The notes under the pieces are model-generated. The model was not told the origin of the DNA. It searched no databases and saw only the letters and a program-made list of their open reading frames with translations. Made by a program: the position numbers and the translations under genes. Of a stretch of 64,000 nucleotides of DNA, positions 43,569-43,940 are shown in pieces. The DNA comes from Alphaproteobacteria bacterium (lineage in GTDB: Bacteria; Pseudomonadota; Alphaproteobacteria; RF32; CAG-239), in contig JAZNXK010000011.1 of the NCBI GenBank assembly GCA_045593845.1, forward strand, positions 97,198-161,197. The letters run 5' to 3'. Positions within the stretch are counted from its first letter, which is position 1, and each line of letters starts with the position of its first letter.

Positions 43569-43643
43569 GCGGGCGTAGCTCAGGGGTAGAGCGCAACCTT
43601 GCCAAGGTTGATGTCGAGGGTTCGAATCCCTTCACCCGCTCCA
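43569..43643 (+). tRNA. tRNA-Gly (anticodon GCC)
   Basis: Hand-folded: anticodon stem CAACC/GGTTG with loop TTGCCAA, T arm GAGGG-TTCGAAT-CCCTT, encoded CCA. One C-A mismatch in the acceptor stem. Confidence 0.8.
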
Positions 43644-43644
43644 T

Positions 43645-43713
43645 TTTTTAAGACCTCCCAAAACGGGAGGTTTTTTTATTATTCGGGTGAAGGGATTAAA
43701 ATCCCTGTCTTGC
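43645..43713 (+). repeat. 69-bp unit, copy 1 of 2: terminator hairpin GACCTCCC-aaaac-GGGAGGT + T-run, then an inverted copy of the tRNA-Gly 3' arm (CGGGTGAAGGGATT) in a GGGATTAAAATCCC palindrome
   Basis: Direct comparison with 43872-43940 gives ~92% identity. The 14-nt stretch AATCCCTTCACCCG of the tRNA is present as its reverse complement. Confidence 0.55.
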
Positions 43714-43871
43714 TCCTAGGTGTTGCGTTAATCGCAACACCAAGTCGCTTCGGTCACTCGTGTTGTAACATTTGCTTTGCACACTGTCGTGGCTTTGCAA
43801 ATTAACAACACTTCGCCTGTCGTTAAAAATTGCTCATTTGAGAGCAATTTTTTGCCTCCAGCCTGCTCCAA

Positions 43872-43940
43872 TTTTTAAGACCCCCAAAAAAGGGAGGTTT
43901 TTTTATTATTCGGGTGAAGGGATTAAAATCCCTGTCTTGC
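43872..43940 (+). repeat. 69-bp unit, copy 2 of 2, preceded by GCCTGCTCCA, which resembles the tRNA-Gly 3' terminus CCCGCTCCA
   Basis: Seen in sequence. Confidence 0.55.

What the first reader, a model, noticed from the sequence alone, without database searches (positions are those of the whole stretch)
43636..43940. Two 69-bp units after tRNA-Gly, each a terminator followed by an inverted copy of the tRNA 3' arm, enclosing a possible sRNA
Each unit has the hairpin GACCTCCC...GGGAGGT + U-run, then CGGGTGAAGGGATT, the reverse complement of the tRNA-Gly T-arm and acceptor 3' half, embedded in the palindrome GGGATTAAAATCCC. Copy 2 is again preceded by a CTGCTCCA tRNA-end-like sequence. The 150 bp between the units holds a 9-bp-stem hairpin (GGTGTTGCG-ttaat-CGCAACACC) and a second intrinsic terminator (ATTGCTC-attt-GAGCAAT + T-run). 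This is the layout expected for a ~120-nt sRNA or a miniature integrated element.
Basis: seen in the sequence. Interest (0 to 1): 0.55.

Follow-up and report, generated by a model that had tools for sequence, protein, structure and literature searches.

The report
Miniature integrated element beside tRNA-Gly
The two repeats are the left-hand junctions of two insertions sitting one after the other at the end of a glycine tRNA gene: a 227-base mobile element with no genes, then a 3-kb island. This is a known kind of genome scar, here unusually small and unusually well conserved.

Summary
Window 43635-43721 and 43862-43948 are an 87-nt direct repeat (91% identical, 227 nt apart). Each copy holds the last 9 nt of tRNA-Gly(GCC), a terminator hairpin, and an inverted copy of the tRNA T-arm/acceptor 3' strand.

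Relatives show what it is:
- One relative (L035) has an empty site: tRNA, terminator, flank.
- Others carry one or two insertions placed exactly after the tRNA's CCA.
- Each insertion has the same parts in the same order: its own terminator, the inverted tRNA arm, the motif TGTCTTGCTC, a variable stretch of 25-140 nt, a 118-nt right end that is 95-100% conserved, and CCCGCTCCA.
- In L012 the same left end leads straight into the 3-kb island that follows copy 2 in the window.

So 43644-43870 is a non-coding miniature integrated element, and the second unit is the left junction of the next element in a tandem array.

A 79%-identical homologue of the core lies at a tRNA-Pro gene in a GC-richer gut bacterium. 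It is again bracketed by repeats of terminator plus tRNA 3' part, and in one strain it sits next to a prophage with a large serine recombinase.

I found no promoter, no conserved reading frame, no Rfam match and no recombinase gene in the window. The best reading is a CIME-like remnant moved in trans. An sRNA cargo is not excluded.

The parts
43569..43643 (+). tRNA-Gly(GCC), the integration target. It is intact.
   Evidence: ARAGORN; Rfam tRNA model, 65.6 bits. It is 100% identical in L002, L004 and L006.
43635..43643 (+). Core copy 1, CCCGCTCCA: the last 9 nt of the tRNA and the left boundary of the insertion.
   Evidence: The empty site in L035 and the occupied site in L002 differ by an insertion placed exactly after this CCA.
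43644..43683 (+). T1, the terminator carried by the element (hairpin 43650-43674 plus U-run). It now terminates tRNA-Gly.
   Evidence: In L002 the first terminator differs from the host terminator, which sits after the element and matches the one in the empty site L035.
43684..43705 (+). LE1, the inverted and degenerate copy of the tRNA-Gly T-arm plus acceptor 3' strand. It is the left-end segment of the element.
   Evidence: It is absent from the empty site L035 and present after the first terminator in every occupied relative. In L036 the equivalent position holds a partial tRNA-Pro.
43706..43858 (+). The 153-nt element body: left-end motif TGTCTTGCTC, a variable stretch, and the conserved right end up to GCCTC.
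   Evidence: The short forms in the window, L006, L004 and L036 are all 148-154 nt, and they align.
43719..43741 (+). H2, a 9-bp hairpin in the variable stretch. It matches the start of the 'long' variant in relatives.
43747..43864 (+). RE, the 118-nt conserved right end. It contains H3 and H4.
   Evidence: Covariance model R1 scores it 147 bits. It is 95-98% identical to relatives, while dtd is 81% identical. The tRNA-Pro homologue is 78.6% identical.
43760..43811 (+). H3, a 52-nt imperfect palindrome (GTGTTGT..ATTTGC / GCAAAT..ACAACAC).
   Evidence: It folds at -19.7 kcal/mol, z -3.7. Paired changes between the two families keep the pairing: G:C to C:G and A:U to U:A. Within the family A:U changes to G:C.
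43825..43852 (+). H4, an A-run, 11-bp hairpin and T-run, resembling a two-way terminator.
   Evidence: In L036 the stem sequence is replaced but the hairpin and the A/T runs are kept.
43862..43870 (+). Core copy 2, CCTGCTCCA: the right boundary of the 227-nt element and the junction with the next element.
43871..43910 (+). T2, the second terminator copy. It carries one stem mismatch and is weaker.
   Evidence: One search does not call it.
43911..43942 (+). LE2 plus the motif TGTCTTGCCC: the left end of the following island.
   Evidence: The 35-mer spanning the end of the terminator's U-run, LE and TGTCTTGC is identical at both copies (43679-43713 and 43906-43940). In L012 the order tRNA, terminator, LE, TGTCTTGCTC leads directly into the promoter and homologue of the 512-aa gene.
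43933..47063 (.). The second element of the array: a ~3.1-kb island with four orphan ORFs (44055-45593 +, 45604-45948 -, 46052-46597 -, 46609-47064 -). It has no conserved right end and no recombinase.
   Evidence: It is absent from L002, L004, L006 and L035, which carry a 72-aa gene there instead. The ORFs match no family in Pfam above its threshold (one sub-threshold DUF7862 match) and none at all in PHROGs, NCBIfam or PADLOC.

Best explanation
Window 43644-43870 is a 227-bp miniature integrated element with no genes. It sits exactly at the 3' CCA end of tRNA-Gly(GCC) and is the first member of a two-element tandem array. The second member is the ~3.1-kb island that starts at 43871.

**Layout of a complete element, in order:**
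- its own intrinsic terminator, which replaces the host terminator so the tRNA stays properly terminated;
- a left end made of an inverted, degenerate tRNA-Gly 3' segment plus the motif TGTCTTGCTC;
- a variable stretch, probably what is left of deleted cargo;
- a conserved 118-nt right end (RE) with a long imperfect palindrome (H3) and a terminator-like hairpin that could work in either direction (H4);
- the 9-nt tRNA 3' core, CCCGCTCCA.

The two '69-bp units' are therefore the left junctions (tRNA core, terminator, left end) of two consecutive elements.

**Proposed mechanism (inferred).** A site-specific recombinase supplied in trans crosses over in or next to CCCGCTCCA, between a circular form (RE-CCCGCTCCA-terminator-LE) and the tRNA 3' end. 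Repeated integration into the regenerated core, or unequal exchange between the repeats, changes the copy number. The small elements are deletion derivatives of larger islands of the same family, in the manner of CIMEs. RE would be the cis-acting right arm.

**What is shown:** the insertion/empty-site polymorphism, the exact boundaries, the modular layout, the tandem arrays, the lack of coding capacity, and a homologous element at another tRNA.

**What is inferred:** the recombinase, movement in trans, and the role of RE.
For: **Empty versus occupied sites.**
- L035 is an empty site: tRNA...CCCGCTCCA | GTTCGATAAAACCTCCCTTGATGGGAGG..GTTATG | TAGATAAAAA.
- L002 has a 332-nt insertion right after the CCA. 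The L035-type terminator, with 1 mismatch, is displaced to the insertion's right side, after a second CCCGCTCCA.

**Copy number varies among close relatives.**
- 0 copies: L035.
- 1 short copy: L006.
- 1 long copy: L002 and L011.
- 1 short plus 1 long copy: L004.
- The same arrays appear in independent assemblies (L003, L005, L007).

**The left end is shared with the island.**
- In L012 the terminator, inverted tRNA arm and TGTCTTGCTC lead straight into the promoter and a 63%-identical homologue of the window's 512-aa gene.
- L014 keeps a truncated left end followed by a homologue of the 114-aa gene.

**No coding or known RNA signal.**
- There is no conserved ORF. The few substitutions in RE are mostly non-synonymous in the open frames, and a 1-nt indel shifts the frame between the two families.
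- There is no Rfam match.

**The short variable stretch looks like a deletion product.** The window's short stretch resembles an internal deletion of the long variant.

**The family occurs at a second tRNA.**
- L036, L037 and L038 come from human-gut samples, with 45-52% GC against 38.8% in the window.
- They carry a 154-nt homologue (78.6% identity, E 2e-9; model R1 110 bits) between tRNA-Pro(TGG) and a copy of its 3' 37 nt.
- In L036 the direct repeat is 72 nt, made of terminator plus tRNA 3' part.
- In L038 a prophage with terminase, DUF2924 and a large serine recombinase abuts that partial tRNA.

**A second example in the window.** An unrelated 181-nt insertion at tRNA-Arg has a 19-nt repeat of the tRNA end, its own terminator and a T-arm-like palindrome. 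It shows the same design 3.6 kb away.
Against: - **No recombinase found.** None turned up in the island, in ten further large ORFs of the window, or in the 20-kb loci of relatives. No full-length parent carrying both ends was found.
- **No direct sign of movement.** No circular junction or excision product was observed. Homologous recombination between the repeats could equally remove or duplicate copies.
- **RE is too well conserved for a decaying scar.** It is 95-98% identical between lineages whose dtd genes are 81% identical, with 62-66% identity at third codon positions. The terminator and left end of the same element vary much more. RE therefore has a function that I could not identify.
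- **The inverted tRNA segment is not explained by the standard integration model.** That model predicts direct repeats only.
- **Orientation differs between the two families.** Relative to the intact tRNA, the element core faces opposite ways.
- **The element is rare in the databases.** It was found only at these tRNA loci. Exact-pattern scans of 185,579 species genomes gave chance hits only, and JGI metagenomes gave one contig of the same locus.
Confidence: 0.62

Rival explanations
1. The conserved 118-150-nt core is a small regulatory RNA gene ended by the H4 terminator. Either it is the element's only cargo or it is a resident gene, and the repeats are a side effect of duplicating it.
For: - H4 is a hairpin followed by a U-run on the + strand.
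- The whole module folds far better than shuffled sequence, z -7.
- H3 and H4 keep their pairing through paired changes, with 6 such pairs between the families.
- Most single changes within the family give G:U pairs on the + strand (3 of 4 in RE, 2 of 2 in H2).
- RE is far more conserved than the neighbouring genes.
- L037 has two units in direct tandem, as sRNA paralogues often are.
Against: - No sigma-70-like promoter lies upstream of RE in the window or in L002, and none is conserved between the families.
- There is no Rfam match even at E up to 10.
- Relative to the only nearby promoter, that of the tRNA, opposite strands of the core would be transcribed in the two families.
- The core is missing from the close relatives L035, L012 and L014.
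- Both strands fold equally well.
- Symmetric changes in a palindrome are also expected for a site bound by a protein dimer.
- The excess of G:U pairs (5 of 6 changes) is not significant (p about 0.1).
Confidence: 0.2
2. The repeats are a purely local tandem duplication of the region downstream of the tRNA, made by replication slippage or unequal crossing-over. No mobile element is involved.
For: - The repeats are direct and head to tail.
- Copy number varies between strains.
- Within the window and within L006 the two terminator copies resemble each other more than those of other lineages.
- L037 shows a plain 153-nt tandem duplication.
Against: - The material between the repeats (left end, RE) has no counterpart in the empty site, so it had to arrive from elsewhere.
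- In L002 and L011 the two terminators are quite different, and the distal one is the host type.
- The same core sits beside a different tRNA, in a bacterium with a different GC content and different neighbouring genes.
Confidence: 0.08
3. It is a MITE-like non-autonomous transposon, cut and pasted by a transposase, that happens to prefer tRNA ends or hairpins.
For: - It is small (about 150-230 nt), non-coding and strongly structured.
- Its ends are conserved: TGTCTKGCTC at the left and CCTCCAGCCC at the right.
- In both families the core sits between two halves of a tRNA-derived stem.
Against: - It has no terminal inverted repeats.
- The flanking repeats are 9-72 nt long and consist of tRNA plus terminator. 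They are not a fixed short target duplication.
- There is only one locus per genome segment examined and no scattered copies.
- The window has no transposase.
Confidence: 0.05

Closest known systems
CIMEs (cis-mobilizable elements) and tandem accretion at tRNA genes. [quoted passage not shown] 2004, as summarised in PMC5704250).
   Same: - It is integrated at the 3' end of a tRNA gene and bounded by direct repeats of the target's end.
- It has no recombinase or transfer genes.
- It sits in tandem with another decayed element at the same site.
- Its variable interior looks like the product of progressive deletion.
   Different: - It is only 225-335 bp with no ORF at all, little more than the two arms. 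Described CIMEs are kilobases long and still carry genes (my own knowledge).
- No parent ICE, IME or prophage is known.
- The right arm is highly conserved.
- The left arm contains an inverted tRNA fragment.
- Movement has not been tested.
Dehalococcoides ssrA genomic islands: tandem islands bounded by 20-bp repeats of the tmRNA gene's 3' end, integrated by a serine recombinase (DsiB), some of them proposed to be cis-mobilizable (PMC3146451).
   Same: - Both form arrays of elements downstream of a tRNA-like gene, each ending in a copy of the gene's 3' end.
- The number of copies differs between strains.
- A serine recombinase is a plausible driver. In L038 a large serine recombinase prophage abuts the partial tRNA-Pro.
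   Different: - Those islands are about 10-30 kb and carry integration modules and cargo.
- Here the element is non-coding, and the terminator is part of the repeated unit.
Classical prophage or island attL/attR at tRNA genes, where the element brings a replacement tRNA 3' end (Williams 2002 classification of integration sublocations, from my own knowledge).
   Same: - The tRNA stays intact.
- The repeat covers the tRNA 3' end: 9 nt here, 37 nt in the tRNA-Pro family, and 19 nt in the tRNA-Arg insertion.
   Different: - The repeat extends through the terminator.
- No integrase gene lies next to attL or attR.
- An extra inverted tRNA segment is present.
Bacterial MITEs and other small repeat elements (RPE, Correia, ERIC, REP/BIME; from my own knowledge).
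   Same: It is small, non-coding and rich in hairpins.
   Different: - It has no terminal inverted repeats and no short fixed target duplication.
- It is not scattered around the genome.
- It is strictly tied to tRNA 3' ends.

Membership tests
CIME (cis-mobilizable element) | Bounded by attL/attR-type direct repeats left by site-specific integration at the end of a target gene. | tested here: met
   The core CCCGCTCCA lies at both ends. The repeat is 87 nt in the window and 46 nt in L006. Comparing the empty site L035 with the occupied site L002 places the insertion exactly after the CCA.
CIME (cis-mobilizable element) | Lacks integration and transfer genes. | tested here: met
   The 227 nt hold no conserved ORF. 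The adjacent island's ORFs match no recombinase family.
CIME (cis-mobilizable element) | Derived by deletion from an autonomous ICE, IME or prophage of the same family. | tested here: inconclusive
   - The short and long variable stretches look like a deletion series, and the island shares the left end.
- No autonomous parent was found in the species genomes, JGI metagenomes, IMG/VR, or the phage and plasmid collections.
CIME (cis-mobilizable element) | The att sites are still recombined by a related element's recombinase (excision and cis-mobilization). | not testable with these tools
   This needs PCR or long reads for the circular junction and the empty site within one population, or a recombination assay.
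tRNA-targeting integrative island or prophage | A recombinase gene lies next to one att site. | tested here: not met
   - There is no Phage_integrase or Resolvase hit in the island or in ten further large ORFs of the window, nor among the called genes of L002, L004, L006 and L035.
- Only the separate prophage in L038 has a large serine recombinase.
MITE | Terminal inverted repeats, a short fixed target-site duplication, and many scattered copies. | tested here: not met
   - No inverted repeat links the ends.
- The flanking repeats are 9-72 nt of tRNA plus terminator.
- The 64-kb window has a single locus, and about 0.9 Mb of other held DNA has none.
Any Rfam RNA family (sRNA, riboswitch, intron, tmRNA) | A covariance-model match at or near the family's gathering score. 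| tested here: not met
   Only the tRNA model matches. The best other hit scores 25 bits against a gathering score of 56 and is a chance match to a plant microRNA model.
Stand-alone bacterial sRNA gene | Its own promoter and an intrinsic terminator that define a discrete transcript. | tested here: inconclusive
   A terminator-like hairpin, H4, is present. No promoter-like site lies upstream in the window or in L002. Expression cannot be measured here.
Intrinsic (Rho-independent) terminator, tested on T1 | A GC-rich hairpin followed directly by a U-run. | tested here: met
   T1 has a 10-bp stem, a 5-nt loop and a TTTTTTT tail, at -15.2 kcal/mol. Across relatives the stem is kept while the loop varies.

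The most novel reading that the evidence does not exclude
The ~150-nt core (TGTCTKGCTC ... H3 ... H4 ... CCTCCAGCCC) could be a new class of minimal 'hitch-hiker' element. It would be a structured, gene-less DNA (or RNA-producing) module that exploits tRNA-targeting site-specific recombinases, serine or tyrosine. That would make it the site-specific-recombination counterpart of a MITE. It would carry a terminator and a tRNA-mimicking segment, which together form a ~90-nt palindrome with the tRNA end. Strong selection on its 118-nt right end would keep it intact. Alternatively, that right end could encode a new tRNA-linked small RNA.
Probability: 0.18. Interest if true: 0.65.

Novelty: new variant of a known kind. 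Interest (0 to 1): 0.4.

Why it matters
**If the reading is right.**
- These would be among the smallest integrated elements bounded by tRNA-end repeats, essentially two recombination arms with nothing between them.
- Such remnants can persist, multiply in tandem and stay highly conserved across lineages, and the family can occupy different tRNA genes. That bears on how integration hot spots at tRNA genes build up, and on how genome-island finders should treat sub-kilobase, gene-less arrays.

**For annotation.** The terminator of tRNA-Gly here is foreign DNA, and the 3-kb orphan-gene island is part of the same array.

**Open question.** The unexplained conservation and symmetry of the 118-nt right end make it a concrete candidate for a recombinase or regulator binding site, or for a small RNA. 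Either can be tested directly.

Tried and rejected
**Searches that found nothing useful**
- The window's own Dtd protein is not on record by exact look-up.
- A 20-mer from the conserved right end, scanned against one genome per species, gave two chance hits, in a Planctomycetota and a Chitinophagaceae genome.
- The JGI metagenome scan gave one contig of the same locus.
- The first three IMG/VR scans, using motifs from the window family, found nothing.
- A looser two-block pattern gave 120 chance hits. None matched the covariance model.
- More distant Dtd relatives (66-71% identity) lack the tRNA-Gly next to dtd, so they say nothing about the ancestral state.
- Homologues of the 72-aa flank gene at 75% identity lie in a different gene order with no tRNA.

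**Ideas considered and dropped**
- *Degenerate second tRNA gene.* ARAGORN and Rfam do not call one, and RE is too conserved.
- *tmRNA-like or tRNA-like RNA closed by an acceptor stem between the left end and the core.* The pairing follows trivially from the inverted tRNA copies, and it is broken in the window and in L004.
- *Small protein on the minus strand (GGAGG, 7 nt, TTG).* The substitutions are non-synonymous, and the frame shifts between the families.
- *Group I intron in a tRNA anticodon loop*, suggested by the layout in L036. The core is too small, has no Rfam hit, and contains a terminator.
- *IS200/IS605-type, integron attC, retron, bridge-RNA or omega-RNA elements.* No associated protein is present and the ends do not match.
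- *Simple inversion between the two palindromic terminators, to explain the inverted tRNA arm.* The predicted junctions do not match the sequence.

**Not done**
- I ran no further search on taxonomy. The host is only inferred to be an uncultured, low-GC bacterium, probably an alphaproteobacterium.
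Full report
**1.

- ARAGORN and Rfam place tRNA-Gly(GCC) at 43569-43643.
Window 43635-43721 and 43862-43948 form an 87-nt direct repeat, 91% identical and 227 nt apart.
- Each copy starts with the last 9 nt of the tRNA (CCCGCTCCA; CCTGCTCCA in copy 2). It continues through a terminator hairpin with a U-run, and then through CGGGTGAAGGGATTAAAATCCC.
- The first 14 nt of that last segment are the exact reverse complement of tRNA positions 43625-43638. That gives three matches in the window against 0.01 expected. 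The inverted repeat reaches 21 nt at 86%.
- The first hairpin is called as an intrinsic terminator (-15.2 kcal/mol, z -4.5). The second has a stem mismatch and is weaker (-10.5 kcal/mol, z -2.0).
- The 9-bp hairpin at 43719-43741 and the A-run/hairpin/T-run at 43825-43852 are both real.
- A 35-mer from the repeat occurs exactly twice in 64 kb, against 0 expected.

**2. Genomic context**

- The window is core chromosome with 38.8% GC.
- The local gene order is enolase, dCMP deaminase, a response regulator, L17, Dtd and tRNA-Gly. A variable region follows, and then DUF4177, tRNA-Arg and L28.
- Homologues of Dtd at 83-86% identity led to metagenome contigs with the same gene order.
- The best named relatives of Dtd are Alphaproteobacteria MAGs at 66% identity. 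The assignment to Alphaproteobacteria is inference only.

**3. What relatives show**

I segmented every locus at the tRNA 3' core. The result is a modular array.

| Locus | Content after the tRNA's CCA |
|---|---|
| L035 (NCBI assembly GCA_054270035.1) | Empty site: host terminator (GTTCGATAAAACCTCCCTTGATGGGAGGTTTTTTGTTATG), then flank TAGATAAAAA... |
| L002 / L003 | One 332-nt insertion, then a second CCCGCTCCA, the same host-type terminator (one mismatch) and the same flank |
| L006 / L007 | One 224-nt insertion |
| L011 | One long insertion |
| L004 / L005 | Two insertions, one short and one long |

Each insertion has the same order of parts:
- its own terminator, whose spacer and loop differ from the host's;
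- the inverted tRNA arm (GCGGGCAAAGGGATTAAAATCCC and variants);
- the motif TGTCTTGCTC;
- a variable stretch of about 25-140 nt;
- a 118-nt conserved right end (RE), ending ...TTTTTTGCCTCCAG;
- the core CCCGCTCCA.

By this layout, the window's 43644-43870 is one short element.

**4. The second unit belongs to the next element**

- In L012 (Dtd 86% identical) there is no small element. The order tRNA, terminator, GGGGTGAAGGGATTACATCCC, TGTCTTGCTC runs straight into a TTGACA promoter and a 498-aa protein. That protein is 63% identical to the window's 512-aa ORF.
- L014 (Dtd 70% identical) keeps a truncated arm, followed by a homologue of the window's 114-aa ORF.
- So the window's second unit (43871-43942) is the left junction of a ~3.1-kb island (43933-47063).
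- The island holds four orphan ORFs. They match no family in Pfam above its threshold, and none in PHROGs, NCBIfam or PADLOC.
- The island has no conserved right end. It replaces the 72-aa gene found in relatives.
- The two '69-bp units' are therefore the left junctions of two consecutive members of one element family, arranged in tandem.

**5. The conserved right end**

- RE is 95.2-97.6% identical between the window and its relatives, and up to 100% among the relatives.
- By contrast, dtd is 81% identical (62-66% at third codon positions) and nearby intergenic DNA is 82-97% identical.
- The terminator, the arm and the variable stretch of the same elements differ much more.
- RE shows no sign of coding for protein. 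Its few substitutions are mostly non-synonymous in every open frame. A 1-nt indel also shifts the frame relative to the second family.
- RE folds into two hairpins. H3 is a 52-nt imperfect palindrome at 43760-43811. H4 is a two-way terminator-like hairpin at 43825-43852.
- Within the family, one pair changes on both sides (A:U to G:C) and three single changes give G:U on the + strand, while one change breaks a pair.
- No Rfam family matches, even at E up to 10.
- No promoter-like site precedes RE.

**6. A second family at another tRNA**

- A sensitive blastn of the L002 element against GenBank phage records hit MT837050.1 (L036) at 78.6% identity, E 2e-9.
- L036 is in fact a bacterial chromosome fragment from human faeces, with 49% GC. 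It carries polysaccharide-synthesis genes, RadC, a methionine aminopeptidase and TspO.
- It holds a 154-nt homologue of the element body. The left motif is TGTCTGGCTC, and the right end is CCTCCAGCCC.
- The homologue lies between a complete tRNA-Pro(TGG) and a copy of that tRNA's 3' 37 nt. The direct repeat is 72 nt, 94% identical, made of terminator plus tRNA 3' part, with 253-nt spacing.
- IMG/VR scans with motifs shared by the two families found two more contigs of this lineage:
  - L037 has two 152-nt units in direct tandem.
  - In L038 a prophage directly abuts the partial tRNA-Pro. It encodes a terminase, DUF2924 and a 568-aa large serine recombinase.
- Between the families, H3 keeps its pairing through G:C to C:G and A:U to U:A changes. 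The stem of H4 is entirely replaced, yet the hairpin and its A/T runs remain. In all, 6 predicted pairs change on both sides.
- A covariance model built from both families (R1) finds every known copy at 96-150 bits. It finds nothing else in the window, in 19 loci, or in 78 chance-hit loci.

**7. What the second family explains, and what it does not**

- In L036 the end of the body that carries TGTCTKGCTC abuts a partial tRNA, in the same relative orientation as the window's inverted arm.
- The 'inverted copy of the tRNA 3' arm' is therefore best read as the tRNA-derived segment that this family carries at its left end. It is degenerate in the tRNA-Gly family, where the T-loop reads TTTTAAT and the final CTCCA is missing.
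- Relative to the intact tRNA, however, the body faces opposite ways in the two families. In the window the arm is inverted rather than direct.
- I could not derive one arrangement from the other by a simple inversion. This remains unexplained.
- Because opposite strands would be read from the tRNA promoter in the two families, an RNA made by read-through is unlikely. Symmetric changes in H3 fit a base-paired RNA or single-stranded DNA, and they fit equally well a palindromic site bound by a protein dimer.

**8. Best explanation (confidence about 0.6)**

- The region is a CIME-like miniature integrated element in a tandem array at tRNA-Gly.
- It would have been integrated, and perhaps is still moved, by a site-specific recombinase supplied in trans. 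The crossover would lie at or next to CCCGCTCCA.
- The element brings its own terminator, so the tRNA keeps a proper 3' end.
- This matches two published models. One is decayed elements that retain attL/attR and build up in tandem (PMC5704250). The other is the tandem ssrA islands of Dehalococcoides, which a serine recombinase integrates (PMC3146451).
- The weak points are these:
  - no recombinase or full-length parent was found;
  - no excision product was seen;
  - RE is too conserved for a neutral scar.
- An unrelated 181-nt insertion at the neighbouring tRNA-Arg has a perfect 19-nt repeat of the tRNA end, its own terminator and a T-arm-like palindrome. It is absent from all relatives. Such mini-insertions are therefore a recurring feature of this genome.

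**9. Rivals**

- *sRNA gene, as cargo or resident (about 0.2).* It is supported by H4, the structure and the conservation. It is weakened by the lack of a promoter, the opposite orientations, and the absence from close relatives.
- *Purely local duplication (about 0.08).* It cannot explain where the left end and RE came from, nor the tRNA-Pro homologue.
- *Transposon-type MITE (about 0.05).* There are no terminal inverted repeats, no short fixed target duplication and no scattered copies.

**10. Verdict**

The 'sRNA' reading stays open but is the less likely one.
- It is a new variant of a known kind, of moderate interest.
- The real loose ends are the function of the 118-nt right end and the origin of the inverted tRNA segment.

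Noticed in passing
window 47315-47572 (minus strand): tRNA-Arg(CCG), at 47496-47572, is followed by a 181-nt non-coding insertion. The insertion is bounded by a perfect 19-nt repeat of the tRNA 3' end (47315-47333 and 47496-47514). It carries its own terminator (47452-47494) and a T-arm-like palindrome, GGTTTCGAACCC (47424-47435). It is absent from L002, L004, L006 and L035 and is not matched by model R1. It is a second, unrelated mini-insertion of the same design.
   Followed up: partly
window 43985-45593: A perfect 12-of-12 consensus sigma-70 promoter (TTGACA, 16 nt, TATAAT) at 43985-44012 precedes a 512-aa orphan protein. The protein is built from repeats resembling 'LPEPxRT' and matches no family in four libraries. 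A 63%-identical homologue follows the same left end in L012.
   Followed up: partly
window 45604-47064: Three further orphan ORFs lie on the minus strand of the island, of 114, 181 and 151 aa. Only the 114-aa protein has a homologue (47% identity) in L014. The 181-aa and 151-aa genes take the place of the 72-aa membrane-like gene found in relatives.
   Followed up: partly
L001 6560-6700 and 2183-5179: In the closest relative by Dtd (96% identity), the DNA differs from the last few codons of dtd onward, and no tRNA-Gly appears before the contig ends. Two extra genes sit between the response regulator and L17: a 214-aa UvrD_C/zinc-ribbon protein and a 783-aa orphan. The neighbourhood is a rearrangement hot spot.
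   Followed up: no
L037 144-448: Two 152-nt copies of the element body lie in direct tandem, 99% identical. No tRNA fragment or terminator lies between them, so the body can also duplicate on its own.
   Followed up: partly
L038 10185-12925: A prophage directly abuts the partial tRNA-Pro copy next to the mini-element. It encodes a gpA terminase, a ParB-methylase, a SAM-synthetase-like protein, DUF2924 and a 568-aa large serine recombinase. Its attachment site appears to be the tRNA-Pro 3' end.
   Followed up: partly
L036 5021-5057: To the right of the tRNA-Pro family's element body lies a perfect 20-nt palindrome, CCAAAGCAAGCTTGCTTTGG. It is made from the tRNA-Pro anticodon stem and loop sequence and its complement. 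The body therefore sits between the two halves of an anticodon arm. I have no explanation for this.
   Followed up: no
window 42271-42861 and 47659-48078: Ribosomal proteins L17 and L28 of this lineage carry long C-terminal tails rich in lysine and alanine.
   Followed up: no
MT837050.1 (L036): This GenBank record, labelled 'UNVERIFIED: Bacteriophage sp.', encodes only ordinary bacterial chromosomal genes: sugar epimerases, UDP-galactopyranose mutase, RadC, a methionine aminopeptidase and TspO. It is probably bacterial DNA that was carried into a virome.
   Followed up: yes
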